Origin: Octopus vulgaris
Lineage: Eukaryota
Reading direction: 5' to 3'
Length of the DNA stretch: 64,000 nucleotides
Assembly (NCBI GenBank): GCA_951406725.2
Contig: OX597823.1
Location: 71,610,001 to 71,674,000, forward strand
Shown piece by piece: positions 99-50,400 of this stretch; within the stretch, counting starts at the first letter, position 1, and every line of letters begins with the position of its first letter. The translations under genes and the position numbers were made by a program. The notes below the pieces were generated by a model. That model made no database searches, was not told the DNA's origin, and saw nothing but the letters and a program-made list of their open reading frames with translations.

Positions 99-1745
99 CA
101 ATGGTGTCATTTAATTTAAGAACATTAATATACTAATGCTAAAATGAAATTTTTTATATATTCAAGTTATAAATTGTGAATAAAGATGTACATCAAAATA
201 AAGAAAATTTCATGAGCTTTAATATGGTATGCAACTTTACAGCATAACATCAACATATTAACTTTGAATTAGAAATAAACTTTATTTTACGTAATTTACG
301 TCACTACTTAATTTAAGAACGATTTGCAAAATTTCATTTTTTTTTTCCTTATTGACTAATATTTGGGTAATTTGAATGCTGTTACAATTTTTAAGTTACT
401 TAATAGTTGTGATGAGTAAGAGACAAAACTTAATACCAGAACCCAGACTGAGGATCACTCAGCTTAGTTGGCTGAAATGGTCATATAAAATCTATTTCAA
501 ACGTAGTTAGCTGCTCTAAAACAGTCGTCTACAATGCTGTTCATCTTTGTAAAGAAACTAATGATTATAAAGACCACTCTCAGCCTGAGAAACCAAGAAA
601 AGCAACCACAAGAATGGATATATACATTCATAGACTGTCCCCCAAAAAATGAAAAATGACTGTTGTTGTCATTTTAAAAGAAACTGGGCAAAACATGGAC
701 ATACCATTGGAGTGTCCACCATAAAAAAAAAAAACATCTCAAAGAATTTGAACTTCTAGGAAGAGTCTCTTGCAAAAAGCCATACATTTCTTTAAAAAAT
801 CGATGTACCCAAATGCAGTTTGCAAAAGAGCATTTGAATTGGAGCCCAGCAGATTGGTCGAATGTGTTGTGGTTGGATGAGTCAAAGTTGAACTTGTCCA
901 GTAGTGATGGCAGGAAGTATGTAAGAAGGCATATAGGCAAAGAATATCATCCAGAATGCATCCAGCCTATAATTAAGCACAGTAGTGGAAGTGTGATGGT
1001 GTGGGGTGGGGGGGCATGTTGAGAAAAGATGGAAAAGGTGATGGTCTTATAATAAGAATCAAGGGCATTATGGATAGTAAATCCTATCTAGAAATATTGG
1101 AGAAGACTATGCTTCCATACGCCTGAAAGCATTTGGGCCGATCTTGGACATTCCAGCATGACAACAACCTCAAACACACCTCGCATCTAGTCAGAGATTA
1201 CATTAGGTCTAAGAGAATTCAGTTGATGCAGTGGCTGGCACAGTCACCTGACCTAAATCCCATCGAAAATCTTTGGGAAAGGTTGGGTAAAGCTGTGCAA
1301 AGTAGTAAGCTAAAGAATAAGGATGGTTTTTTTGTAAATATTATTAGCTAAAATTGGGAAAAAAATTTCAGGAACAGCATTAAATGATCTGAACAATTCT
1401 ATGTTTTGCAGATACAAAACTCTATTAAGTAATTTTGGATATCCAACAAAAAATACTGATTGTGTGAGCTTATTGTTTTTTTTTTTTGTTGTTGATCTCA
1501 GAATAAACATTTTAAGGCAAAAATAGAAAATTTTACAAATCATTCTTAAATTAAATGGCGCTATAATTACAATAATTAAAATTTATTTTTAATTTAAAAT
1601 TAATATTTTGATGTTATGCTGTAAAGTTGTATACTGTATTAAAGCTTGTGAAATTTACTGTATTTTGATATAAAACTTTAAAAAATATAAAAAATGGCAT
1701 TTTGACATTAGTATACTAATGTTCTTAAATTAAATGGCGCCACTG
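99..1745 (+). mobile_element. Decayed Tc1-family DNA transposon (DD34E, long IR/DR-type TIRs)
   Basis: TA at 97-98 and 1746-1747; ~220 bp imperfect TIRs (caatggtgtcatttaatttaagaac / gttcttaaattaaatggcgccactg). Broken transposase with WLDESK, FQHDN, SPDLNPIENLW; 34 residues between D and E. Confidence 0.9.
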
Positions 1746-7300: not shown

Positions 7301-10300
7301 CATCTTCAGTGAATCTATATCCTGCAAGTCTCTTCCTGTTCTGCTCATTCTATTTAAATAATAATGATAGTAATAATAAAGTTGAAGTGAAGATCAAATA
7401 TATATATATATATAAATTATGAATTAGAGATAAAACCACTATTATGCAACTCAAACAGTGATAGATATAAACCAATACATAAATAACAAATTTTATATAT
7501 ATATAAATTTTTTTTATTGTTTTTTAAATATATAACTTATAACTAGATCTCAAAAAGTATAAAAGGAATGATAAATATATAAGTAAAAACACTACGTACG
7601 TTTCATGGCTACAATTAAATTCAAATTAGAATTAAGTTTAAATTCAATTGAAATAAATTCAAATTAAGATTATAGTCAATCTTCAGGTTAATGATAATAG
7701 TTTGGAAAAATATGACCCTCTCCAATATATAACAATATCTGTTTCAACACACAATTTCACATCAAGTGTCTTTAAAAAAAATACATAATCATAATTTTTA
7801 TTTATTTCTTCAAAATTTCTGTTTAAATCTTTTAGCTTGAGATATTTTGGAAAGAAAGCTTTTCGATACCATTGCCACCCGTCACAGAATCACAAACAAT
7901 ATTTGAATATGTTGTGTCTGATAAAGGAATGTGGGAACATTGGTCTGAGAGGGTAAGTAAGTCAGGCTTGCAAGAACAATATTTCATCTTATTCAACATA
8001 AGACATATTTTCAGAAGCATATGAAGCATGCATGATAGAACTATATGTTAAAGTTTATCCAAAGAGGAACTTGAGCTCAGACCCTAATGACAATATCAAT
8101 GAGGTGAAAAGCTTCATAAGATAAACATAACAGTCAGTTGAATATAACTAACTCTGGTACTGGTATTTATTTAATGATCTTAGAACAGAAGTGGAATGAC
8201 ATACTCTGGCAAAATCTAAGCACAGCAAAATGAGTGCTCCACTTGTGATGACTAAACATCTATTCTGGAATAGGTACCACTTTTTCACATGATTAAAAAT
8301 AATACATAATGAAGTGGTGGAATTAACCAAGATACTAGAGTTATGTTGAATTTATTGCAGCATTTAATTTCATCTTCCTACATCTTATTCAATCAAATTC
8401 AATCTTTTTTGAATAACAGTTATGTAATACAGTTCTATATTTAAGAGATAAGGAATTATGTGCATTATTTACATTATTTACATTATTTACATTCAATGGA
8501 TATTTGTCCTCATCTTGTTTGTTGTTAACAAGTTTCGGCTGATATACTCTCCAGCCTTCTTCGTGTGTCTTGGGGAAATTTTGAATCTCAGTTCTCATTC
8601 CTAAGGTATTTTCGATGTTATTATTATTATTATTATTGTTATTGTTCAACTCACTGCTTGGAATCAAGCTCGGAATCTTGGAGTTAGTAGCCCATGCTCT
8701 TAACCACTACGCCACATATAATGGTCTGTTAAGCAACAACTGCCCCAAAAGTATACTATCCACTCCAATTATGAAGAAGAGTGAGGATGGGACCAATAAA
8801 CTCTCCACAGTCTGTCTACGTTGTGTCAAAGGCCTCTCCGAAAAGATACAAATGATATGCGGCCCATATGACACCAGGACAGTATTCAAGAGTAATACAA
8901 CACTTTCCAAATATCTCCTTCGAGTAAAACCACCAATAGAGGAGGATATGACCAAAGACTGCGTGTACTCCATCCCATGCAGCTGTGGTAGGTTATACAA
9001 AGGTAAAACATGCCGCACCCTCAAAATAAGAGTAGACCAACATTGCAAAGCTGTGACATGAGGAGATATTGATAAGTTGGGTATAGCTGATCATGTATGG
9101 AAAAATAGAGACCACCTCCCCCTGTGGGGTGAAGTTCAAATAATAGACAGAGAACACTACGGGAAAATAAGAACACTAAAAGAAGCAGCACATATGCTAG
9201 GACACAACAACCTCCTAAGCAGACCGAGTGCAGTTATGAAGGAAGGATAGAAAAAATATTAGATTTATAAGCCCTAAAATTCACTTAATAATTGCCCACG
9301 AGCATATGGCATAGTGGTTAAGAGCACAGGCTACTAACCCCAAGATTCTGAATTTGATTCCAAGCAGTGACCTGAACAACAACAACAACAACATTGAAAA
9401 TACCTTTGGAATGAAAACCCAGGTTTGAAATTTCCCCAAGACACCTGAAGAAAGCTGGAGGGTATATCAGCCGAAATGTGTTAACAACAAACAAATATCC
9501 GTTGAATGTAATATGAGGACAAATATCCATTGAATGTAAATAATGTAAATAAGGAACAGTTATGTAGTCATTATGTAGATCAACATAAATTCAGACTTTT
9601 GATGTCCCTCTTTGTAGGTTTTAGTGGAATATACTGTAGGAATTCTTAAATTCTTTATAACCAACCATGGCTTCATCAATGGAAACTTTCCTGTATAGAT
9701 TATATAAGTAAGAAAAACTACACTAGATAAAGTTTTGTTCCTGTCTAAAAATAGTTCTTTGAGTTTTATCAATAAAACAAACTTACGTTTAAATTTTTTT
9801 ATCCAAGTTCGATAATTAGTACAAGTCTCTGGTTCAGCATGGATCCTAATATATTGTTGAACATATTTCCATTAAAATGTCAAAGGGTTTCCTCTCATCT
9901 TCATTTATGACTCATCATTCATGAACATGATATTCCATTTATCTTCTGCTTATTTGTTTTTTCAGCTTATAATTCTCCATTCTCCATAAATATATAGTGT
10001 AAAGTATATTTGAAAATACTATTTCTGTGTTCTGTCTGGGATTTGATTAAATCAGGAATCCTAATCAGTAGGCTACATGACTAGGACAATTGACAAAAAG
10101 GGAAATGGTCAAAAGATATAGGGCTTCAGTATTGAATATAGAAATAAGCCATGCTAGACCAAACAGTGTTGCCTAGCAATTAGGCATAGCACCAAACAGC
10201 CACCCAACTAGGGTCACTGGTGATGCCATGGGAAGCAGCATGGTGGATGTGTAATCTCAATAAAAAAGTCCTCCACTGACTAATGGCAACATTTACATAA

Positions 10301-13300
10301 TGCTGGACAGAGGTCAATGACCACAGTCATCAAGTTTCTGTTATATTACTGTTAGCATTTGTAGACTCAGTGACCATGGATGCTATTACCCAATAAAAAT
10401 GTAATCCAAGTCACTTCAACCGGATGATATCTGTATAATTTCTGGCCCTGGCACCAGTCCTGAAAACTGGATGGATATATTTTTATTACAAACTTCACTA
10501 AATGGTGTCATTTTCTTTCTAAAATGTTTCTCTTCAGTTTCATTTTTATTAATACTCTCAACATCAGAAATCCTTTCTACTATAGGCTCAAGGCCTGAAA
10601 TTTTGCGGGAGGGAGCCAGTCGATTTGATGAATCCCAGTATGCAACTGGTACTTAATTTATCGACCCCAAAAGGATGAAAGATAAAGTTGACCTCAACGG
10701 AATTTGAACTCAGAACATACCGAAATACTGCTAAGCATTTCGTCCAGTGTGCTAACGATTCTGCCAGCTCACCATGTGTTATTGTAACAGTAGAAGCAAA
10801 CTTTCCTGTATGATAGTTACAAGGTGGTATCAAAAGGTTCCTGAATTAGTTCTGTAGCATAGCACTGACTTTCATGAGGCAGTGTGCCGAGTGACATAGT
10901 TATGTTTACTTTGCAAGTTGTGAAATTTGTGTTATTATGATCGTGTGTATGCTGAAGTCTATGATTTTATGTCATGGACAAAATGTTGGGACAAAGAGCC
11001 AACATGAAATTTTGTGTTAAACTTAGGAAGTCTCTGCAGAGACATTGAGCATGCTTCAACAAGCTTATGGCGATGAGGCAATGGGCTGTACACAATGTTT
11101 TAAGTGGCACAGGTGCTTCAAAAGTAGAAGAACATCTCTGGAAGATGATGAGTGGTCTGGAAGACCTACCATGAGCATCATCTATGGAAATGTGGTATTG
11201 TGTATTGAGAATTTGCTCCCCAGGGCCAGACTGTCAATTAAGGGTTCTACTGTGACGTTTTGAAGCATTTGAGGGAAGACATTTGACAAAAGTGATTGGG
11301 TCTGTGGAGCATGAAGAATTTGGTTCTTTATGGTGACAACGCATCATCACTGAGCTCTCCTCGCTTGTGAGTTTCTCGCCAAAAACAACATGGTATCACT
11401 TCTACACTTGTCCTATTGGCCAGATTTAGCCCCTGTGCACTTCCATCTCTTCTCCAAGATGAAAATTACAGCTTAAAGGTCGCCATTTTAACACTGTTGT
11501 CAAGATTCAGATTCTAAAAGTGGCAGAAATGCTGGAATAGTATACTGTTGTTCAAGGTGACTATTTCAAAGGAGATGATGTTAAAACTTAGGTAAATAAG
11601 TTATTTTTTATTAAATATAACTAGTTCGGGAACCTTTTGATACTACCTCGTAGGAACACTAGACAATCTCAATGAAATATTATAAATGCTTGAACAATTA
11701 CAGCAGATAAAATTTGTTGTACTATTCTGAACTGGGTTTTGTTGATGTTTGTGAAGGCGCATGGCTCAGTGGTTAGAGCGTCGAGCTTACGATCGTGAGG
11801 TTGTGAGCTCGAATCCCGGACCGGGCTGCATGTTGTGTTCTCGAGCAAGGCACTTTATTTCACGTTGCTCCAGTTCACTCTGCTGTAGAAATGAGTTGCG
11901 ACGTCACTGGTGCCAAGCTGTATCGACCTTTGTCTTTCCCTTGGTTAACACTGGTGGCGTGGAGAGGGGAGGCTGGTATGCATGGGCGACTGCTGGCCTT
12001 CCATAAACAACCTTGCCCGGACTTGTGTCTAGGAGGGTAACTTTCTAGGTGCAATCCCATGGTCATTCATGACCGAAGGGGGTCTTTACCCTTTTTTTTT
12101 GTTGATGTTTGATAATTTAATAATTTCTATTCTCCACTGTCAAGTCTACATGTTATGTTGGGTTGTTTTGTTTTTGATAGATAACTCAATACGTATACCC
12201 TAAGGATTCTACTCCAGACTACACAACAATCTTAATTCCAAACATTGACAATGTACGCACTGATTTCCTTATCCATTTGGTTGCAAAGCAATGTAAAGCA
12301 GTTTTATTGATTGGAGAACAGGTAAGAATGAATCAATTATACTTTTATCTGTATTTACCACACTGACTCCTTTATCATACTGATACATACACTTTAATGC
12401 ACTGATTTGTATCACATATTGTACCTTTACATTGTTGTAATTTTACATAAAATTATGAGCTACGGGTGTAAGGGATTAGCTCTGAGATTTGAAAGTGATA
12501 TAAGATGAATTCATCCTGGCTTGTATGCTAGTTTTATTGTCATTATTATTTAATACAAAAGAGATCATTATTATCATTTAGTTGAAGTTCTACTGTGATG
12601 TTTTGAATCATTTGAGAGAGGACATTTGACGAAAGAGACTGGGTTTGTGGAGCATGAAGAATTTGGTTCTTCCTGATGAAAATGCATCATCACTGAGCTC
12701 TCCAGATAGTATTTGAGAACAGATTTATGGTTTTAATATAATGCTTGTATGATAACAGGAAAAAACTGTATCTTTAGGAAAATAACAAAAACATAAAGCT
12801 GAATTATCAATTTAGTAATTTCATCCAATAAAACCACCATAAGCATCAATAACTGACTCTGTGCAGGGTCGAAATCATTTACAAGCTCAGATTAAGTGGT
12901 CCTTGTTTGTATTGGACACAACTTGAACTATGGCAGCTTTCGAAGAATCTTTGATGCTATGGGCGTGCCCATTGACATTTTTCTCAATGATGCCCTATAA
13001 ATAGTAGTCCAGTTGATTGAGATCTATAGAATTAGGAGGCTAAGTGTAGGGGGGTGATGTAATCATGCAAATTGTTGGCCATCCATTCTTGTGTCATTTG
13101 AGCCTTGTGTGATGGTGCAGAATCTTAAGACCTTCCATTGCATACGCTGTTGACCCAAGGTTTAACAACTTTATCCAGAACCTCAATATATGCAGCAGCA
13201 TTCATCCTAAGGCCTTGTGGAAAAAAAGTGAGGAGGCATCACATATCCTTCATTGCTTAACAACACCCAAAACCATGAAACTTGCAGGAAATTTTGTTTG

Positions 13301-15802
13301 CATTACTCTTGGAACCTCAGAAGGGTCTGCACATAGCCATCTGTCATTTCTTCTGTTAGCTTTCTGGTCCTGTTCAAAGTTTTTCTCATCTGAGAAAAAC
13401 CAAATCTCACCATCTTCTAGTGGATATTTAAGTTTGTTCAGAAGTCGTTTGGATCTGATTAAACAGTTTTCTTTTTTTTTTTCTGGCATGAATTGACCTC
13501 TCCTCATCGTGTAAGATTTGTTTCTGATGTCTTCGTGCACAACATTTCTGATTGTTTTTTTCTGACACACAAAATTTTTTTGCAATTGACCTCATTGATT
13601 TTTCTGGATTATCTTCAATGTTTTGCTAAACTTCCTAAATAAATTCAAGTGTCCTGATAGCATCAGAGTGTTGGGAATGTTTTTCATGCTTTGATACCAG
13701 TAATACATCTCCATCCTCTTTCTCTAACTCATACCGAATCTTGTGAACAAAAGATCTTACAAAATTTCTAAATCACCATGCTCAGCTTTCAAAGCCACAA
13801 TCACAGCATGCCTTTTCATTTCATCATCATCATCATCATCGTTTAACGTCCGCTTTCCATGCTAGCATGGGTTGGACGATTTTGACTGAGGGCTGGCGAA
13901 CCAGATGGCTGCACCAGACTCCCATCTTGATCTAGCAGAGTTTCTACAGCTGGATGCCCTTCCTAACGTCAACCACTCCGAGAGTGTAGTGGGTGCTTTT
14001 ACATGCCACCGACATGGGGGCCAGTCAGGCAGTACCGGCAATGACCTTGCTCAAATGTTTTTACAAGTGCCAGTAAGGCGACGCTGGTAACAATCATTAG
14101 TAAAAATAGAACCTGTCCTTGTCATTTTCTGAAACTGAAGTTCAATAAAAATTATTAAAATAAAATGACTAAAAATGCATGTGTCCTCAAATATTGTCCA
14201 CACTCTGTATATTATATGTTATGTGTCGTTATATATATCCTTTATTTGTGCATAACACTCTAGTGTTTGAATCTGTTGAATTTATTCCAAATTGTAAGAT
14301 TTATACTTTCTAAATCATTCAGCTCAGTTGAAGTTGTTCTGTTTATGTTTTGCATTTGTCTCATAAAGTTTAACGAAACAGTTTGAAGTTTTATCCAACG
14401 GTGTTTCTACTCTCTTGACATTGTTAGTTGTTCTGTTTATCTTTTATATTTGAAAGTTGATTCTGCATTTCTTTATTTTATCTCCATGTAATAAAATGCA
14501 ATGCTGTTTTAGTTTTTCTCATCTGGCATTTTTGCATAACATTAAGGTAAAAAAAAGCACTTGTAGCTCATATGATCGTAATGATGCACAGCAGTCAATG
14601 TATTGTTTGCAACCATCTCTGCAGAGAGATCATGTGTGATCCATTTTCGAAACTTTGTCACTTTACCAATTCTTTTCAGTTTGTGAAGAATAGCTGTATG
14701 GCTCACATTGAAGCCGGTGCTTAGTTTCTAAACTGTAACAGCTGGGTTTGCTTCAGTGGTAACTTTCAATATATCAGGATTTAATACCCTTGGATGCCTC
14801 TCTTGATTCATCCAACAGGTGGTAGTCTTCATTCCTGACTCATGGAAACCATCTTCTGCATGTTCTGTCAGTCACTATGCCATCACCGTAAGTCTTTTGG
14901 AGTGATTTTGCTGCTACACCTGCACTGTTGCCTTATTGTAATTCCTAAAGAATAAAGTGATGAATATGTTCTTTGATCGGAGTCAACATGGGTCCAATAC
15001 AACAACTTCACTTATGATACAATTGACGAAATGTGAAAGAAAATGAAAGAAAATTATATACAAACGATTTTGCCATATTTTAAAACAGAACTGAGAAGTT
15101 AAACACTTTTAGATTTAAGTAGATATTTACTTAAAAGGAAACAAAACAGAATTTCTTTACTACCTGATATATATACATATATATTTATATATGATGAATA
15201 AAAAATATATGCATATATATTTTTCTATATATATATATATAACATAAGAGGGATCAGCCATCTGAATGTGGCTAGGGTCAGGGCGGGGTGGTGGGGGTGT
15301 TACTGATGCATTTAGCCCCAGGCGAACATCGACGTCACCAGAAGAGCTGACACCATCTCGGTGTCCTTGCCAGCCAGCAAAGGGAGATCAACCTCCCCGA
15401 AGATACGGATACTACACACGGACCGGTTTCGAGGTTACTGCCTCTTGTCAACGTATGGTAAGCACCGCTCTTCGTTGAGGGACTTCCTCTGCAGGCTGGA
15501 TATATATAGATTTTCACAGTAACCACAGTCACTGGCGTAGAAAATCTGTTCGAAAACAATAATAAATCTCTGGGCGAGATATAAACAGTAACTGCTCTAT
15601 AACATAAGAGGGATCAGCCATCCTTATAATATAGGCATGCACGTATATATATTATTATTATAGAAACACAGAAAAAAATGGAGATAAGATTAATAAAAAT
15701 TTATTAATACATTGACCAGACATACAATTGTTTAATAAATTATTCATGCATTAATAGATATATTAATAAATTTTTATTAATCTTATCTCCATCTTCTCTC
15801 TT

Positions 15803-26555: not shown

Positions 26556-29500
26556 ATTATAATTAGGGTTCAGCTAACTGCTTCACCACATACCGAAATT
26601 AGAAAAAGGAGTTAGAAATTCCTTTCCTGCTACTATAAGAATCTCCATGATGGTAAACATACTTTTTTATGAAGGTAAAGAGAAAAACAATGAATCAACA
26701 TGACCAGGATTAATTATATACGCGTTTTGAGATTAAAGTAATTTGAATTTTACTTACTTCTCTCTTCAGTATAATATTTCCCATTTTTTAATAAAATTTG
26801 AAAGTATTATACTGAAGAGAGAAGTAAGTAAAATTCAAATTGCTTTAATCTCAAAACGCATATATAATTAATCCTGGTCATGTTGATTCATTGTTTTTCT
26901 CTTTACCTTCGTAAAAAAAGTATGTTTACTGTCATGGAGATTCTTATAGTAGCAGGAAACGAATTTAAAACCCATTTTTCTGCGCTGGCAAACTTTACAC
27001 ATATCTGTTGTACCACCAATTACAATCTAATTTAAATCTTGTCTATGAGATCCAACATCCAGAGAATCTGATTTTATTTATACTAATATATCAATTAAGT
27101 ACAAACAGTTAAGGGAACTATTTTGCTCTCTTTGCTAACAATAATAATCATGAGAAAATCCTCAGGGTTAACTTGACATACCATACTTTATATGTTGAAG
27201 GATACCAGCTAATTTAGGACCTTATATTTTATGCCATGCACAAGGGAAGTATTTTGCTGTCCTTGATAATAATAATCATGGAAAATCCTCAGATTGACTT
27301 GACATACCACACTATATATGTTGAAGGGTACCAGCTAATTTAGGACCTTATATTTTGTTCTGAAAAAGATTTTTAAAAATATAATGTATAAACTTACTTT
27401 TGATGAAGCAGTGCTTATAGCACTCTCTTGTTATGAAACAAGGAGATTTTAATAGCTGCCTGATGTTCATTCTGTTAATATTCACTTTGAAATCTTTTAG
27501 ATTAGTTTTTGTTGGAATGACAATAAATATTAATGAAAATCATGGAAATAAGGATAGATCCAGAAGCAACAACCAGGTAATGTGTTTGGGGTGGCACACT
27601 GGAAAGACAAGGACAAATGCATTAAATGAGTTTAGGCACAAACAGATAACAGTTTGCAAATTCAACAGAACAAATAATAATACTGTAATAGCGTAAACAA
27701 AGGAAGTCCATGCACAAGTGGTTATTGAGTATTATTGAATGACAATCTGCATGCAGAAGATATTTTATTTCTTTATGGTATAAGAAAGATGGGGAAGCAC
27801 AAAAACATAAGCAATTAGTCTTTTTCAAATAAAATCTGTCACTCAGTTTAATTCTTGGTAGTAGTTATTTCATATGGTCTATAAATGGCTTTGAGAGAAC
27901 TTTGAGTATCACAACTTTTACTCCCTAGTCATGGGAGTATCACTGATCTCAAAAGGTTGCTCAAGCAATTAACCCAATTAATTTTATTGAATAATTCAGA
28001 ATTTATTTTTTAGGATCAGAATGTAAGTGTTCCAAATGTAATCTTAGCTGAGTTGTGTCTATCATTAGCAGTTATATTGGTCTGGGTTATTTTCTGGCTC
28101 TGAAAACAAACCCAGTATTCTTGATGCATGCATAACTATGTAACGAAAATATAATTAATGTAATTATAATATTTCTAATATAGAAGTTGGAATCTGTTTT
28201 TGGTATTTATAGGTCACAAATGAAATTACTCGGCAAATGATAGAAATGAATGGATTCTATAACCTTGAAAAACCTGGAGAATTTACAACAATTACTGATA
28301 TCCAGTTGTTGGCTGCAATGATTCATCCTGGAGGAGGCCGAAATGATATTCCTCAGAGACTCAAACGTCAGTTCTCTATCTTTAACTGTACTCTGCCTTC
28401 AAACAATTCTGTTGATCAAATTTTTCAAACTATTGGTTGTGGACATTTTTGCAAGGTACAGACATTTTACAACACTTTTAAATGCTTTGTATTTGTTGCC
28501 AAACTTTTTTCCTCTGACTATCTTTAAATTTAGTAAATAGAAAAGTTCTCCTCTTAAGTATTAACACTCACCACTACTTTTCTAACAGCAAAATATATTT
28601 AACCCTTTTGTTACTGTATTTATTTTGAGATGCTCTGTGTTTCTTTCAATTACTTTTAGATATAACAAAGAATTTAGTAAAATAGCTTAGTTATCATTTA
28701 GCTAGTGTTAGGAACATAAATTGTGACTAAGGTTTGGTGGAAGATTTTAATTCAAAACTCATGAAAACAAGACATTTGTACTCAGAGCCAGAGCCAGTTT
28801 CAGCCAGGTTGGTAACAAAAGGGTTAATGGGTTGCTTTCTGTTTTTTTTTCCTTTTACTTTCTGACGTTTTATTCATTTTTGCTGAGATACAATTTACTA
28901 GTTTCCATGGATTCCAGTTTTTTTTGTTTTATTTTAAATACATATTAATATATCATCATTTTGTGTCCGTTTTCCATGCTGGCATGGGTTAGACAATTTG
29001 ATAGGAACTAGAAAGCTGGAGAGCTGTACCAGGCTTCAGTCTGATTTGACATGATCTCTACAGCTGGATACCCTTCCTAACACTAACCAATCCAAGAGTA
29101 TAGTGGGTGCCTGTTACACATCACCAGCACTGGCTATGACTATGATTTCACTTGGCTTGACATGTCTTTTCAAGTACAGCAAATTGCCAAAGGTCTCAAG
29201 CGCTTGTCATTACCTCCAAAGATCATGCTTCACCACCTCATGCCATGTCTTCCTGGTCTACCTCTTCCACAAATTCCCACTACAGTTAGAGATCAGCACT
29301 TCTTTACACAGCTGTCCTCATCATGCATATGCATCACAACACCATGCCAGCCAGTTTTCTCTCTTGCCCACTAAATCTGATGCCCCTTATGCCCAATATA
29401 TCTCTCAAGATGCTTACACTCTCTTGTAGATGTACACTGATATTGCTCATCCGGTGAAGCATACTAGCTTCATTCTTTCAAGCTTTCACATGTCCTCTGC

Positions 29501-31106
29501 AGTCACATCCATTGTTTCACTACCATATAGCATGGAATCTGCCTTTCACTCTGGGGAAGAGGCCCTCTATTATCAACAAAAGTAGAAGTTCTCTGAATTT
29601 TGCCCAGCCTATTCTTATCCTAGCAGCTATGCTCTTGGAGCTCCCACCTCCACTACTGACATGGTCATACAGATAATGTAAGCTAACGACTATTTCTAAG
29701 TGTCTCTCCTGGCATTTGACGAAGTCTATTTTCTCTTCATTTATAGTGTTCATTTTACTCATATATCTGCCAGACACAAAGACTACTTTCTCTGTTAACC
29801 TTCCTCTGATATTGCTAACTATTCTCCTTAGCTAAAAGGAATGTTATGCTCAGTTTTAGAAGTGTAATTTATAATAGTTAACAGGTGCTGGATCACAAAC
29901 TTATATGAAGTGAAAACGAAAATAATTCCTACCTTTCTTTGGTTCAATAGTAACAAAAATTATTTGAATTAACTAAATTGAAAATCATCACTTCACATGA
30001 ACTCATGTTAGGACGGTAATAGTGGTGGAGATAATGATATTTTTTATTAAACTGGAAAATTTATTATATTTCCCCACTGAATTGGGAATGAATCTACATT
30101 TTTCATTTGTTAATAAGTTTTCATTACAACGATACACTAAAATTATTATTTGCATTCCATTTACCTGTTGTATTTAACAAAGCTTGAATTACTTCAAGGA
30201 CTAGGGTGCATGCTACTTGTTAAGGCACTAGAATGCTGACTAACTGGTTAGCAATTCAAATTTGCACTCTGCTCTTTATCAAAATGCATTACTCTGTTTC
30301 ATTCATCAGCTGACAGTAGCTACCTTTTTCAGTTCAAAACTGAGTTGATTCAAGTACAAGTATACACCAATCTGCAAAACCACAGAACCCCAGAATGTTC
30401 TCAAGTATTGAACCTGGAAAAGTACAGAACAAGCAGTCATTAAGCCTGGAAAAGTACATAACAGGAAAAGAAAAAAAAACTTAAAATATTGCTTCTGAAG
30501 TTAGAATATTACAACTAAAATAGTAATAAATGCCCTTTTATATTTTATTTTTGCATAAAGTTGAATTAAAATATTCTAGATGCTGTTTATTTTCAATTTT
30601 AGTGAAAAGATTAATTGCCTGCAAGCTTACACATTAAAAATTTGATACTACAAATTTATATATTTAAAACAATCACTTGATAGCAATTCAAGCAAGATTC
30701 ACAATTATAATTCCTAATTTTTCTTTTAAAAAAGGTTAGAATCATTTTAACGTTTTGTACTCAGTTTGTTCATTAGCATTAATTGTCTTAAAATATTTTT
30801 CTTACTTTAAATAGTTTGTCATCTGACGATGCAAACTTTAAAGAAATTAATTCTTTTGTTGCCTTAAAACATTGTTTTTTTACTATTTTCATTTCTTTTA
30901 ATTTATATATACTCTACATGAATTTAATTTTATAACGCAAAATCTCTAATTAAAAATTTTTGGATAATGAGTTTTGTTAAGAAAAGAAAATTAAAAAAAA
31001 TAATGTAATGCTAAAAATAAGTAAGAAATGTTATAGTTTAATACAAAAATTTTTTTTAATCAAAAATATTAACTTAAATTTTTTTTATTTGATGTGAATA
31101 GCAATA

Positions 31107-31151
<45 letters not shown>

Positions 31152-31786
31152 ATAAATCTCAGAGCGAGTTATAAACAGTAGCGGTAACACATCGTGACGC
31201 ATATTTGCCATTTGAATATGGCTAACACCTAAGGGTGGATGCTACTGTAGTTTGTAGCCCCAGGAAGATATCTCCTCCAGCTGGCTATAGACACACTATC
31301 TGTGCCCTCTCAATATCTGTGAAGGGAAGTCATGCTCCCCGTCTTCAACTCATGATACACACGGACTCGAGTTTCAAGGTGTTTACCTGTCATCCACGCT
31401 TAGGGGTTAGCCATATTCAAATGGCAAATATGCGTCACGATGTGTTACCGCTACTGTTTATAACTCGCTCTGAGATTTATCATTGTTTGATTTCACTTTT
31501 TCAATATCAGTGTCAATCAACACTGGAAAAAGTATATGTATTTGTGAAGGGAGCTGACTTCTCGTCGACAACCATGATTGTCACACGCTGGTGATAGGTA
31601 AACACCTTGAAACTCGAGTCCGTGTGTATCATGAGTTGAAGACGGGGAGGATGACTTCCCTTCACAGATACTGAGAGGGCACAGATAGTGTTTCTATAGC
31701 CAGCTGGAGGAGATATCTTCCTGGGGCTACAAACTACAGTAGCATCCACCCTTAGGGGTTAACCATATTCAAATGGCAAATATGCG

Positions 31787-31831
<45 letters not shown>

Positions 31832-34800
31832 AAAACAGTGTACACACTATCTGATGAACAATTTCAGATATTTATTTATCAAATTCTAACTTCAGCAGCA
31901 ATATTTTATGTTTTTTGCCCTTCTTGTCCTGTACTTTGTCATGTTCAATGCTTAAGAATATTCTAGGATTCTGTGCTTGCATTTTCCATTCTAGTCCACT
32001 TTCTTTCCAGGCAGTGCCTCTGTTGTTATAATAAACAATACTTGTAGAATTGAAAAAAAATGTTACTATTGCAAATATTTTTTAGATACAGATTTTGTTC
32101 AAACTTGGAAATGTTGTTTGCTCACAAAAATAACAAAGAATTAATTAGCAGCATATCTGTTACAAATAAACATGTTATTAAACAATTTTTATTATGCAAT
32201 AATGTTATATTCTGATTAAATAATTAATAATTAGTTATTTTAATGAGGGAATTTTAAAATTTCTATAGGTTTTTAATACATACATATTTTAACAGATAAA
32301 CAGAATAATAATAATCAATATGACATTGCAAAGTATCATAACATTTTGTACGTTTAATATTTATAGACGAAATTTTCTCCAAAATATTTGTCTCAATGAA
32401 CTCTTTCATTTGAGTTCAAATAATTTGTTTTCTTAAAAAGACAAAAATATTTTGATTTCAGTTAAGGCCACACAGCTCTTTTCGTAACTGATATTTTCTG
32501 ACATGGTTTTCAACCACCTCACCAACAACAACACTGAACACCTTTTTGATCTCCATGTGTCTAACACACGTGGACATGCCTACAAAGTCTTGAATACAGA
32601 ATAGCTGTGAATACATACCCTTAGAAAATGGGGAAAACAACTGGCTAGCAAGCTGTTACAGAGTATTGAACCCTGTACCACTCAAATTCCTGTTGAGTAT
32701 ATACACTTTAGATGAGTTAAGTGACCTGACATAACATCAGATTATTATTATTATATTATCATTATAAATATCTTAAAATGATAAAAATATTTGTTAAAAA
32801 TATTTCCTTACTTAAATCCCCCTTTTTTATAGCAAATATTTTTTGATGAGGCTTTTATCATAAGATTCATCTCATAGAACCTTTTCATTTGGACAAAACG
32901 ATTGTATAGTGTCTTTTACAATAGCTGAGATACTTAGATTCAAAATTTTTTCGTTATTTAAAGCCACACAACTTTTTCATAACAAATACTTTTTAATGAG
33001 GTTTCTCCAAAACTGTCTTCCCAATGTGCACATTCTTTCAGACCCAATTAATCTTATACATTTCTGCTAAAATAACAGATATTTTTTATTTAAAGTCAAT
33101 TTTTTGCCTTTCTTTAACATTTTTGACCACACATATTTTGGCCTAACTTTTTTTTTTAATGACCCAAATTTCAGTTATTTTATCTCAAATGTAGCTTTGG
33201 ACTGAACCATCATTGCTAAAGCAAATGCATTCAATTTGGTTGAGAACTGGATTATTGATGAAGCCTAGAACTGTTTTCAATTACTAAAAGCTAACCATAA
33301 GAGTGATACACTACTGTTTTGATAGAAGGCAAGTTTATATTCCTAAAGCAGGATATTCTTTTATATTGTTTTAAATGTTAACAGTCTATATTAATGGATA
33401 GCAGTAAAAATGTAAAATATGTATGAGTAGAAGTGAGTTAGTATTGTATCCTGAATATATAAATATATGTCTCTAGTACAAGAGGGCTTATGTTTCATTA
33501 TGACTAAAGGTAAAATGTATAGACATGTATGCAACAAGTAAATTAACAAACTTGTTTTTTTTTTTGTTTATTTTTTGTAGGAAAGACACTTCCCTGAAAG
33601 TGTTATTGAAATGATTCCTATACTCATACCTGCAACCAGAAAGTTATGGCAAGATATAAAAGTGAAAATGTTACCAACTCCAGCCAAATTTCATTATGTT
33701 TTTAATTTGAGAGATCTCAGTAGAATATGGCAGGTTTGTATGAAATAGTTCAGAATTTATATCCTGTATATATGGAGGTAAAACAGTAGAGTAGATATGG
33801 TGGTAATCTACCAGCTCTGGGTTAATGAATTCAAAATCACTGAAAATATTTTTATTGATTCTGATTAGATGAACTTAATCTACATTTGACCTTATCTGGC
33901 CAATAGTTTTTTTTTTTTTTGCTATGTATATGGGTTTATCTGTTTTGGTTATCAAACTGAACATCACGGAAAGGAAATATTGGTTTCAAAATTTGACACA
34001 AGGCCAGTAATTTCACAGGAGGAGATAAGTTAATTGCATCGACCCCAGTGCTCAGGGAAAAGCAAAGTCAACCACAGCAGAATTTGAACTCAGAACATAA
34101 AGACAGACAAAATGCTGCTAAGCATTTTGCCTGGCATGTTAACAATTCTGCCAGCTTGCCACCTTTGGAGAGGAAATATTGAGAAGATATACTCAATAAG
34201 GATGCACTAGTCTGGCTTTACATTGCTCCACATTATAAAGGATGAATTGTAACAGTGTATTTCAAAGCCTTGACATCAATTTTTGAAGAAAGTGAAGTTT
34301 ACTGATGTAGCCAAAAACATTGACCCTTTTGTTACTGAATTTATTTTGAGATGTTCAGTGTTTCTTTTGATTACTTCAAATATAATAGAGAATTTCGTAA
34401 AATAACTTAGCTATCATTCAGCTAGTGTTAGGAACATAAATTGTGACTAAGGTTTGGTGGAAGATTTTAATTCAAAACTTTTGAAAACAAGACATTTGTA
34501 CTCAGAGCCAGAGCTGGTTTCAGCTGGGTTGGTAATGAAAGGGTTAAAAAGATTAGAGCTCATGATATTTCAGTTAACTTTTTATTATCTTGGTATCTGT
34601 TTAGCTATTTTATTTCTTTATGGTTTGCTTGTATGTATGTACAGAATGATAGGCTGGAGAATAAAGGGTCATTTCTTAATGGTTGTTGCTTAGACCTGGT
34701 TATTCCTTATGCAGCAGACGTATTAGGAAAGGCATTCCAGATATTTCTAATCTAACCTATTAATTTTGTATCATCATGCCAAGAAACCATGCTCCACTAA

Positions 34801-47400: not shown

Positions 47401-50400
47401 ACTTGCCATTACATTTTTAATCAACCAAATATGAACCATTTTGTTGCACAATGCGTCTACATCTTTCCTTTGACTTCAAAATACCCTCTTCCCAGAATTG
47501 AGGTTGTTTCATGGCAAAGAATTCATCAAGGTATCTTTTTACATCATCCAAGGAATTGAAATATTTACCATTAAGACTATTCTGCAGAGACTTGAATAAG
47601 TGGAAATCCGAAGGAGCAATATCTGGAGAATATGGAGGGTGGGGTAATACATCCCAGCCGAGCTGCAGCAATTTTTGTCTGGTTCCCAAAGAAATGTGTG
47701 GTCTTGCATTGTCATGTTGGAAAACAACACCCTTCCTGTTGGCCAATTCTGGATGTTTCTCTTGAATTGCTGCTTTTAACTTGTCCAGTTGTGTGCAGTA
47801 TTTCTCAGAATTAATTGTCTGGTTACTTGGGAGAAGCTCATAGTACAGAATTCCTTTCCAGTCCCACCAGACTCAAAGCAAGACTTTTTTTGGGTGAAAA
47901 TCAGAGATGGAAATGCAATCCAAAAAGTTCTTCTCACTCAACTCATGTGGTACCCAAATATCATAGTGATTTGTATACCCAAGCTTTACCAGGTGCTCAT
48001 GAATGACAGATTTTGATAGGTTGAGGCTTTCTGCCAATTCTCGGGTTGTGCAATGTGGGTTATTCTCAATTAATGACTTGATTTGGTCATCATCTGTAGT
48101 GGATGGTCTGCTTGATCGCTCTTTATCAATAAGGCTACAATCTCCAGCTCAGAACCTTGTGAAGCACTTCTGTACAGTTCTGTCGGATCAAGAAACATCA
48201 CTGTAAACTGCGCATATTTCTTTGGTTGCTTGAGAGGCATTTTTCCCTTTATGGAAAAAGTAAAGCATCAAGTGCTGAAAATGAACTTTCTTATCTTCCA
48301 TTTTAAAGGGTTACAGAATTAACACAGGTTATAGGAACATAAACCTTCTTCCACAAAAAGATAGCTTAAACTGTGCTCTAAATGGAGGTGTAGTAAAATC
48401 CTATTTTATGGACTCAACCATGTTCTAAAATAAGTTGAGAGGTAAGCTACTATAAATCGGCACAAACTTTCCGGACAACCCAATATTATAATCTTTTATT
48501 TCATTTCATGTGATGTGTTCTAAATGTAGATCTGATTTTTCAAGTCTTGTTAATTACTTTCATATCGAATTGCAAGTATTATACCTACAATTTACTACTA
48601 GAACTGGAATAGGTAAAGTATTGATACTTCTTCCTTGGAGGAAAGAGGTCACTAACACAAAAGAAAAAAAACAACAAAATCAACAGCAAAAGAAAAACAC
48701 TTAAGATGGACATTAAGTTTATAGAAGTGGTTATAAACTGAAAAAAAACATATCCAGTAGAGGGAAAGGCTTTGAGGATTTATTCCTAAAAGCTCCTGAA
48801 GTCAGATAGCTTAGCAAATAGACTCTCAAACACAGACAGTTGAAAGAGAAGTACTATTTTGATGCTGGGCTTTTCAGAAGAAAGAGCAAGCTGGCAGAAT
48901 TGTTAGCATGCCAAGCAAAATACTTAGAAAGGTTCTTTGACATTTCTCCCTCTACTGACAAGGAGACAGGATCAACCAATCTTTTCAAAGAACAAGATGA
49001 ATGACTGTTCCACTTTTTCCTCCCATCAAAGTGACTACACTTTAAACGTATTGTACAAATGTTTGTAGCCTGGGCTCAACTTGGAAGGTAGATTATTTGC
49101 TCAACAACTTCTGGTCACTAAACACAAATAATGGTGTGCATTAGCGAGACCAAGAAGCACATACATTCTTGCCTATTTTCAATGGATATGAAATGTACTT
49201 ATCCTGTGGTCTGTTAGACTTTGGTATTGTTCTGGAAAAGTTAAGTTTGTGAGATTTGGGTAAACTTCTTCAACTTAGAAATAAGGGCAGGGTTTCAAGA
49301 AAACTATGCTTCAACAGGAATAGGATGCCCCAATTTTTTCAAATGTCTTAAAGCCTTTCTGGGAAAATCCCAGTCTCTAGTGCTAGTGGGAGATTGGAAA
49401 GGCATTTTTTGATGTATTAAAACACACTAAGACTAATGTTTGCTACAACCATTCTTTGGTCGTCCAGTGTTTTTCCCTGGCTCTGTTGTCCTATATGCAT
49501 AAAAAGCATGGAAATTTGGTGTATGGACTTTGTTGCCCCAGGAGAAAACTGACCATCTTAAAGTCCACACATTTCACCCACTGATGATTGTGGTACTTCT
49601 TTTTCTCTAGCACTGCTTTCATGACTTCATATTTTTCTGCTAGTTTTGTAGAATAAGCATTTAGAACAAAAGCCAATATATTTCCATTATGAAGTAGAAG
49701 ACATTTCAAACTCCTTTTTGAGCTAGCAATTAAAAGGCACCAATCACATGCATTATATTCCACTCATCATTTTCTGTGAAGAACTGAAAAAATTCAGCAT
49801 CCCTAGGGTGATAATAGGGGACTTTGGTTCCATCTTTCTTTTAATCAAGATGCAAGAACTTTTGCAGATTCCTTTGATAAGTGGAAGTCCCTTACCAAGT
49901 AACTGAATTAATTTTGATCCAATAGCTGTGGATCTGATGAGCTAGTGCCCAAGTAATTCAGATCATCTGTAGCTTCCTCTGCTTTGGTTGATTTTCCCTG
50001 GTCATCATCTTCATGAAGTTTTGTGCTAAATTTCTCGTAAATAATGTATTTTCCTGAAAAATGAGGAAAATTGTGAAAATTGTTGGGTTTGGTGCCTTGA
50101 AATGTAGACTTGATAAAAAATGGATTCCATTTTTGGATTCAGCATATGAAAAACCGTTCAAAGCAGATAAATATGTCCTGACAACAAAATACTTGTATTG
50201 TGTTATTTTAAATTGCTTTTAAGGTGGCAAGTTGGCAGAATTGTTAGCAACATCATATGAAATGCTTAGCAGCATTTCCTCTGAATCATCACATCCTGAA
50301 TTCGAATTCTTCTCAGTTTGACATAGCTTTTCAGCCATATGGGGGTTAATAAAATGAGTACCAGTTGAATACTGGGGTTGTTATAATCAACTCGTCCCTC

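What the first reader, a model, noticed from the sequence alone, without database searches (positions are those of the whole stretch)
31149..31790. Retrozyme-like 352 bp circularly redundant element with a near-intact type I hammerhead
Seen: a non-coding unit whose first ~48 bp repeat at its end (31391 and 31743, period 352), preceded by an inverted partial copy and embedded in (TA)n. It holds a well-formed type I hammerhead at 31582-31626: stem I cacacg/cgtgtg, CTGGTGA, stem II aggt/acct, GAAA, palindromic stem III ACTCGAGT, GUC cleavage triplet. Established: non-LTR retrozymes are small type I hammerhead repeats that give circular RNAs, and PLE-type minimal hammerheads can cleave as dimers through a palindromic stem III. 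Inference: a cephalopod retrozyme family copied from a circular or multimeric RNA and mobilised by a PLE. The inversion junction shares the microhomology catc with the hammerhead core, suggesting template switching at the ribozyme. I cannot tell whether this family is already described.
Basis: partly seen in the sequence, partly recalled or inferred. Interest (0 to 1): 0.8.

Follow-up and report, generated by a model that had tools for sequence, protein, structure and literature searches.

The report
Hammerhead mini-retroelement bearing Penelope fingerprints
This is one copy of an abundant 352-base non-coding animal repeat with a hammerhead-ribozyme motif, inserted with the end pattern typical of Penelope-like retrotransposons, so it is likely a retrozyme spread by a Penelope-type enzyme, though its self-cleavage and circular RNA are untested.

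Summary
Observation confirmed. 31391-31790 is 1.14 turns of a 352-bp non-coding unit. A 97%-identical inverted copy (31150-31392) runs 44 bp past the forward end, and the whole sits in (TA)n in a dynein heavy-chain intron. The odd core CTGGTGA is private to this copy: all laid depth in runs X1, X11 and X13, and 84690 of 84750 in X3, has A there. Of 14 family variants at confident pairs, 12 keep or compensate the fold (null 39%, 0 of 5000). A second, 60%-identical family member (15238-15622, minus strand, period 360) has the same layout. The hammerhead is the canonical retrozyme type (like axolotl HHR_Amex2), not the PLE minimal type, and Rfam does not detect it. The one-sided tail, inverted truncated copy and (TA)n target are Penelope-like-element (PLE) signatures, and both copies read through the cleavage site. 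Best reading: a non-autonomous PLE passenger (non-LTR retrozyme), likely copied from an uncleaved multimer or a circle. Tandem arrays, cleavage, circular RNA, the partner PLE and the cephalopod assignment were not shown. New member of a known kind; not found in the library searched.

The parts
31111..31148 (.). (TA)n target tract, left side
31150..31392 (-). Inverted 5'-truncated copy: circular unit positions 202-352 plus 1-92, starting inside the hammerhead core
   Evidence: 6 differences in 243 bp
31150..31193 (-). 44-bp tail present only at this end of the insertion (unit positions 49-92)
   Evidence: loose ends into (TA)n behind 31441 and behind 31479-31487
31391..31394 (.). 4-bp microhomology at the inversion junction
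   Evidence: needs A at 31591, as in the family
31391..31790 (+). Forward copy, 400 bp = one 352-bp unit plus 48-bp terminal redundancy
31447..31491 (+). Tail-region segment, the part most conserved between elements A and B (0.77-0.80 in 30-column windows); candidate enzyme-binding or RT-start region (inferred)
31539..31668 (+). Long predicted rod (extended stem I) with the hammerhead at its tip; compensatory pair 31573/31633
31582..31626 (+). Type I hammerhead motif; predicted cleavage after 31620; core position 31591 is G here and A in the family
31743..31790 (+). Second copy of unit positions 1-48 (terminal redundancy)
31791..31828 (.). (TA)n target tract, right side
15238..15622 (-). Element B: diverged relative, period 360, about 25-bp terminal redundancy, ends in (TA)n at 15226-15241
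   Evidence: 224 of 371 columns identical; nhmmer E 8e-22
15415..15457 (-). Hammerhead motif of element B: decayed core, 4-bp stem II with G-C closing pair, 6-nt loop, palindromic stem III

Best explanation
The insertion is one copy of a multi-copy, 352-base, non-coding family with a conserved type I hammerhead motif, and it was likely reverse-transcribed and inserted in trans by a Penelope-like element (PLE) enzyme, which would make it a non-LTR retrozyme. Shown: unit length, closed circular sequence order, family-wide intact core, structure-preserving variation, one-sided 44-bp tail, inverted truncated copy, (TA)n target. Inferred mechanism: a source locus of more than one unit is transcribed. 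A PLE RT/GIY-YIG protein, probably of a microsatellite-targeting clade (Neptune, Nematis or Naiad), binds near the conserved tail segment and nicks (TA)n. It starts cDNA at two internal sites, unit positions about 48 and 92. One cDNA ran 400 nt, the other about 243 nt, and they were joined head to head over a 4-bp overlap. Both cDNAs cross the cleavage site, so the template was an uncleaved multimer or a re-ligated circle, not a cleaved linear monomer. The ribozyme probably cuts multimers into monomers that a host ligase closes, aided by dimer pairing of the palindromic stem III; this is by analogy and untested. This copy's ribozyme is probably crippled by its private core change.
For: Family: 4016 and 3519 contigs laid in X1 and X3, 95 and 33 in X11 and X13; 20 of 24 listed runs hold the stretch, in 9 studies. 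Core A at 31591: 38763 of 38763, 84690 of 84750, 136.4 of 136.4, 61 of 61 depth. Structure: 12 of 14 variants at confident pairs keep or compensate, null mean 39%, 0 of 5000 (uses the 40 rows shown of 73). Three both-side pairs (31511/31522, 31573/31633, 31596/31607) appear to be phased, judged from matching depths in single contigs. A and B share 31 aligned predicted pairs vs null 3.4 (0 of 300) and 4 both-side changes vs 0.24 (1 of 300). The short ORF-less spacer recurs in other copies: X13 record 20 spans 31451-31727 with 38 differences, X11 record 9 spans 31481-31638, and element B has it too. Longest Met ORF in the forward copy is 57 aa; the two frames over it that were scanned have no Pfam hit. 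Two 3' ends running into (TA)n: 19 contigs behind 31441 in X1, and one contig each behind 31479, 31484 and 31487 in X11. Both arms share G at 31633 and 31667, where the family mostly has A, which fits one template. PLE signatures in print: tail of 30-40 bp on one end, inverted 5'-truncated copy, (TA)n bias (10.1101/2021.04.23.441226). The tail lies between two RT start sites and unprocessed RNA is the main template (PMC11167929). Matching ribozyme anatomy: HHR_Amex2 (PMC7229834).
Against: No genomic dimer or array was seen: the only go-back joint in table 5 is one X3 contig (31744 to 31446, side 33), and no genome is held. No autonomous PLE sharing sequence with the unit was found; the window's PLE-like fragment at 8440-9560 shares nothing with it. 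Rfam hammerhead models miss both A and B. Of A's predicted pairs that vary in B, only 18 of 47 still pair, not above the null (76 of 300). Seven listed variants break weaker predicted pairs and two break confident ones. The tail segment has no clearly shared strong fold (-2.9 kcal/mol in A, -8.6 in B). In the one PLE tested in vitro, ribozyme cleavage was dispensable for insertion, and 8 of 9 Xenopus retrozyme dimers did not cleave.
Confidence: 0.75

Rival explanations
1. It is a non-autonomous PLE derivative (pLTR-only mini-element) copied from linear, uncleaved partial-tandem transcripts. The hammerhead is conserved for folding or slow processing, and no abundant circular RNA exists, so it moves like a retrozyme but lacks the retrozyme's circle.
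For: Terminal redundancy and tail are standard for PLE partial tandems without invoking circles. PLE insertion in vitro used unprocessed RNA. Non-autonomous Chlamys PLEs with pLTRs and head-to-tail copies are described. Monomer stem III is unstable, +2.9 kcal/mol.
Against: The intact core is near-fixed across the family and the ribozyme is of the canonical, loop-loop type seen in circle-forming retrozymes. The whole unit folds stably as a circle (z = -5.3), with compensatory changes outside the ribozyme.
Confidence: 0.15
2. It is the truncated end (pLTR) of a long autonomous PLE, and the apparent 352-bp circle comes from a one-off deletion or template jump.
For: PLE copies are mostly 5'-truncated. 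Two runs (X11, X13) show the same 255-nt loose end behind 31782, which could be a longer related element or a shared locus; it was not followed.
Against: The short spacer between tail and hammerhead recurs in a copy with 38 differences in 278 nt (X13 record 20), in X11 record 9 and in the 60%-identical element B. No ORF. The ribozyme is not the minimal PLE type.
Confidence: 0.06
3. It is a hammerhead SINE or satellite moved by a LINE, or spread by DNA-level tandem expansion; the inversion would be LINE-type twin priming (mechanism recalled, not from a call).
For: Hammerhead SINEs and satellites exist in Schistosoma and newts. Inversions with microhomology also occur with LINEs (recalled).
Against: No tRNA gene, no Pol III A or B box under recalled patterns, no poly(A) or simple 3' tail of its own. 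The one-sided tail is stated not to occur in non-LTR TPRT.
Confidence: 0.04

Closest known systems
Metazoan non-LTR retrozymes (Cervera and de la Pena 2020, PMC7229834): Mytilus 350-390 bp; axolotl Rtz353 with HHR_Amex2
   Same: Unit size 352-360 bp, GC 43-49%, non-coding, stable self-paired fold with the ribozyme left accessible, canonical type I hammerhead. Helix III of 2 bp plus tetraloop and a U.U at the base of helix II in this copy match HHR_Amex2; element B's 1 bp plus palindromic tetraloop resembles HHR_Amex1.
   Different: Seen here as a dispersed 1.14-unit insertion with an inverted copy and tail, not as a tandem array. Cleavage and circles are untested. Sequence homology to those families could not be tested.
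Penelope-like elements (structure: Craig et al. 2021, 10.1101/2021.04.23.441226; mechanism: Frangieh et al. 2024, PMC11167929)
   Same: Partial tandem, adjacent inverted 5'-truncated copy, tail on one end only, (TA)n target, hammerhead upstream of the two apparent RT start sites.
   Different: No RT or GIY-YIG ORF. The tail is 44 bp against 30-40 bp. The hammerhead is canonical, not minimal. Naiads lack hammerheads altogether.
Xenopus retrozymes homologous to PLE pLTRs (Li, Clavereau, Pollet 2026, 10.64898/2026.07.22.740005)
   Same: Same proposed relation: a non-autonomous PLE derivative, with many monomer copies, some in introns.
   Different: Their evidence is co-occurrence and sequence homology; the main text has no hit for 'tail' or 'target site', no relevant hit for 'inverted', and no mollusc. 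Here the evidence is insertion anatomy, and no partner PLE is identified.
Minimal PLE hammerheads (Cervera and de la Pena 2014, PMC4209133)
   Same: Type I topology and a palindromic helix III that allows dimer folding.
   Different: Schistosoma min-HHRs have a 7-8 bp helix II, a 4-5 bp helix I and an extra base before stem II; this motif has a 6 bp helix I, a 4-position helix II and a real helix III.

Membership tests
Non-LTR retrozyme | Type I hammerhead with conserved core | tested here: met
   intact core in the family; this copy differs at 31591
Non-LTR retrozyme | Non-coding unit of 150-450 bp with GC under 50% | tested here: met
   352 bp at GC 0.43 and 360 bp at GC 0.49; longest Met ORF 57 aa in A
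Non-LTR retrozyme | Genomic tandem copies with at least two hammerheads | tested here: inconclusive
   This locus has 1.14 units; one go-back joint in one X3 contig; no genome held
Non-LTR retrozyme | Stable self-paired fold of the unit | tested here: met
   Circular z = -5.3 for A and -3.7 for B on the ribozyme strand; variants conserve pairs
Non-LTR retrozyme | Self-cleavage as monomer or dimer | not testable with these tools
   Needs in vitro transcription; palindrome duplex -10.7 kcal/mol is only a prediction
Non-LTR retrozyme | Expression as linear and circular monomer RNA | not testable with these tools
   All laid runs are contigs, which show no RNA ends, strand or level
PLE-mobilised non-autonomous element | [quoted passage not shown] | tested here: met
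   44 bp on the inverted arm only; two 3' end classes in other copies
PLE-mobilised non-autonomous element | Partial tandem plus adjacent inverted 5'-truncated copy | tested here: met
PLE-mobilised non-autonomous element | Microsatellite or AT-rich target | tested here: met
   A is flanked by (TA)n on both sides and B on one; (TA)6 or longer tracts cover 422 of 64000 bases; loose ends into (TA)n
PLE-mobilised non-autonomous element | Sequence shared with an autonomous PLE of the same genome | not testable with these tools
   No genome held; the window's PLE-like fragment is unrelated
Autonomous PLE | RT plus GIY-YIG ORF | tested here: not met
PLE minimal hammerhead | Long helix II, short helix I, absent or vestigial helix III | tested here: not met
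   Helix I 6 bp, helix II 4 positions, helix III 2 bp plus tetraloop
Rfam hammerhead families | Match to the covariance model | tested here: not met
tRNA-derived SINE | tRNA-like head with A and B boxes | tested here: not met
   (box patterns recalled)

The most novel reading that the evidence does not exclude
An undescribed, old and diversified clade of circular-RNA retrozymes in an octopus-like genome. Its insertions keep the full mechanical signature of Penelope retrotransposition, and its most conserved segment, the tail region, is the cis signal that recruits the PLE enzyme. That would give direct anatomical proof that canonical-hammerhead RNA circles are PLE passengers, and a 350-nt minimal substrate for reconstituting PLE targeting of (TA)n.
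Probability: 0.3. Interest if true: 0.7.

Novelty: new member of a known kind. Interest (0 to 1): 0.45.

Why it matters
Which enzyme moves animal retrozymes is only partly settled. The 2020 review says their repeats show no conserved motif that points to the partner (PMC7761336), and the 2026 preprint argues for PLEs from homology and co-occurrence. This insertion carries the PLE tail, inversion and (TA)n target on a canonical-hammerhead unit, and two 60%-identical families conserve the tail region best. That makes the PLE-passenger idea testable with a short RNA and points to where RT should start. It also adds a family that Rfam misses. It is not a new kind of system, and nothing suggests a host function for this copy.

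Tried and rejected
No genome is held, so no copy count, array search or partner search. Rfam found no hammerhead in four scans. My hammerhead descriptor found B at two core mismatches, among 8 hits of which the rest look like chance, and missed A. Pattern scans gave 0 loci in metagenome contigs, viral contigs and prokaryote genomes. Sequencing-run search: no RNA holder listed. X11 and X13 are only guessed to be RNA and are contigs, so they were used for sequence variants, not as expression evidence; summed depths are not copy numbers. Earlier findings: nothing by sequence, place or words. The host taxon was not resolved: the dynein exon gave axonemal dynein 5/8-like hits from many animals, with no named cephalopod among the 120 of 140 listed. 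The bacterial promoter scan is not informative. A kink-turn in the rod of A was considered by eye and dropped because B does not show it. Literature: nine searches gave no description of this family, and an 18-base motif search gave 0 papers. The giant squid paper counts 235 Hammerhead_1 loci without describing a family. The O. vulgaris repeat paper has no hit for hammerhead or ribozyme. Repbase and Dfam entries could not be searched, and unread supplements may name the family.

Full report
Observation. The forward copy 31391-31790 is one 352-bp unit plus a 48-bp repeat of its start (46 of 48 identical). Directly upstream, 31150-31392 is an inverted copy covering circular positions 202-352 and 1-92, with 6 differences in 243 bp. 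It therefore extends 44 bp beyond the point where the forward copy stops. Both ends abut (TA)n; such tracts cover 422 of 64000 bases. Pfam hits on 140 of 385 plus-strand frames place the insertion in an intron of a plus-strand dynein heavy-chain gene, between an AAA_7 exon near 28220-28400 and an AAA_lid_1 exon near 33626-33736. Named relatives of one exon are axonemal dynein 5/8-like. The host is an animal; 'cephalopod' is a recalled resemblance of the repeat content, not a tool result.

The ribozyme. 31582-31626 has a 6-bp stem I, continued past a small internal loop into a long rod, then the core, stem II, GAAA, a perfect 8-nt palindrome and GUC. In the folded unit stems I and II are well populated (0.67-0.98) and monomer stem III is not (0.0); the palindrome gives a predicted 8-bp dimer duplex of -10.7 kcal/mol. 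Rfam does not detect the motif, and the 61-nt piece alone folds no better than shuffles. The core reads G at 31591 where hammerheads have A. The inverted arm has A, and so does essentially all depth in four public runs: 38763 of 38763, 84690 of 84750, 136.4 of 136.4 and 61 of 61. The base of stem II varies; A at 31595 is the majority in X1 and X3 and can pair with T31608. The layout (helix I 6 bp, helix II 4 positions, helix III 2 bp plus palindromic tetraloop) is the canonical animal type of PMC4209133 and matches axolotl HHR_Amex2 in PMC7229834, not the minimal PLE type.

It is a family. Twenty of 24 listed runs hold the stretch, from 9 studies and 4 coded organisms. I laid four runs from organisms A and B: 4016, 3519, 95 and 33 contigs, spread over identity classes from above 99% to below 90%. 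Depth there is not a copy number. Of the 40 variant rows shown (33 more hidden), 14 fall on confident pairs and 12 of these keep or compensate the pair, against 39% for the same substitutions placed at random (0 of 5000). Two break confident pairs and seven break weaker ones. Three pairs change on both sides: 31511/31522, 31573/31633 and 31596/31607 (stem II). Contigs from other copies bridge the stretch from tail to hammerhead without an ORF (X13 record 20, X11 record 9).

A second family lies in the same window. 15238-15622 on the minus strand has period 360, about 25 bp of terminal redundancy, a (TA)n end and a hammerhead at the same place, with a decayed core, a G-C-closed stem II and a palindromic stem III. 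It aligns to A over 224 of 371 columns (score 178.5, shuffled maximum 37; nhmmer E 8e-22). The two folds share 31 aligned pairs (null 3.4, 0 of 300) and 4 both-side changes (1 of 300), although only 18 of 47 variable pairs of A still pair in B, which is not above the null. Identity peaks at unit positions 57-101, the tail region, at 0.77-0.80, slightly above the hammerhead at 0.70-0.73. So the short, closed unit is an old design, not a one-off deletion.

Mechanism. PLE insertions are described as partial tandems with an adjacent inverted 5'-truncated copy, a 30-40 bp tail on one end only, and a bias for (TA)n in Naiads and for microsatellites in Neptune. In the Anolis PLE the tail lies between two internal RT start sites, and unprocessed RNA is the main template. 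All of these marks are present here, and other copies end in (TA)n either behind 31441 (19 contigs, X1) or behind 31479-31487 (3 contigs, X11). I infer two cDNAs primed from the nicked (TA)n, starting at positions about 48 and 92, joined over the 4-bp overlap 31391-31394. Both arms carry G at 31633 and 31667, where most of the family has A, which fits one template, though conversion between arms is possible. Both cDNAs cross position 31620, so the template was an uncleaved multimer or a circle; DNA cannot tell these apart. Cleavage of multimers and closure by a host ligase are taken by analogy from PMC7229834 and are untested here. Against a necessary role for cleavage: it was dispensable in the Anolis PLE assay, and 8 of 9 Xenopus dimers did not cleave. 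One X11 contig shows another copy truncated at the same core position as the inverted arm, a weak hint of an RT stop there.

Membership and novelty. It works like a non-LTR retrozyme moved by a PLE. It meets the sequence and structure criteria; the tandem-array criterion is inconclusive (one go-back joint in one contig), and cleavage and circles are untestable here. It is not an autonomous PLE, not a minimal PLE hammerhead and not a tRNA SINE. Nine literature searches found no description of the family, but Repbase and Dfam were out of reach, and hammerhead loci are already counted in giant squid. The PLE origin of animal retrozymes is already proposed. The added value is anatomical evidence for that link and a candidate cis signal. 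Verdict: new member of a known kind, interest 0.45.

What I saw of each paper. 10.64898/2026.07.22.740005: parts 1-3 of 5 and a term search; supplements closed. PMC7229834: parts 2-4 of 6 and passages; supplement unreadable, and it may list further mollusc retrozymes. PMC4209133: parts 1-2 of 4 and a term search of 2 supplementary files (one more not searched). PMC11167929: parts 1-2 of 4 and a term search. PMC13282606: part 1 of 3 and a term search; supplement listed, not read. 10.1101/2021.04.23.441226, PMC7761336, PMC6765202, PMC6962438 and PMC10886601: passages only. PMC5785218: not held, seen only as a citation. The effect of an A-to-G change at core position 6 and LINE twin priming are recalled, not from a call.

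Noticed in passing
   Followed up: yes
window 31150-31790: In the host-gene sense the whole insertion is predicted to fold into a near-perfect hairpin of about 200 bp (-434 kcal/mol), a possible A-to-I editing substrate in the dynein pre-mRNA. The forward hammerhead is in host sense and carries a private core change.
   Followed up: partly
window 8440-9560: Penelope-like fragment: a frame at 8585-9058 that resembles a GIY-YIG region by eye (no Pfam hit), flanked by inverted repeats of about 250 bp at 78% identity. No similarity to elements A or B.
   Followed up: partly
window 3847-59164 (+): At least 12 frames with Pfam dynein heavy-chain hits in gene order (AAA lid, AAA_7, AAA_lid_1, AAA_8): a DNAH5/8-like gene spans the window.
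   Followed up: partly
window 5700, 6665, 35130, 43790, 52400, 58115: A SINE-like family of about 410 bp with at least six copies at 80-89% identity, plus other families of 200-350 bp.
   Followed up: no
window 678-1348, 11027-11260, 47417-47872: Tc1/mariner transposase fragments.
   Followed up: no
window 26601-26981 and 62704-62937: Self-complementary (palindromic) stretches of 383 and 241 bp.
   Followed up: no
window 30378-30519 and 31871-31978: Two inverted-repeat pairs (59 and 46 bp, 81-87%) flank the insertion at a distance, suggesting an older fold-back element around the (TA)n target.
   Followed up: no
runs X11 and X13, behind window 31782: The same long loose end occurs in two organisms: either a shared locus or a longer related element such as the autonomous partner.
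   Followed up: no
runs X1 and X3, window 31495-31599: A 332-base contig of the same length, span and number of differences (13) occurs in organisms A and B, suggesting an insertion older than their split.
   Followed up: no
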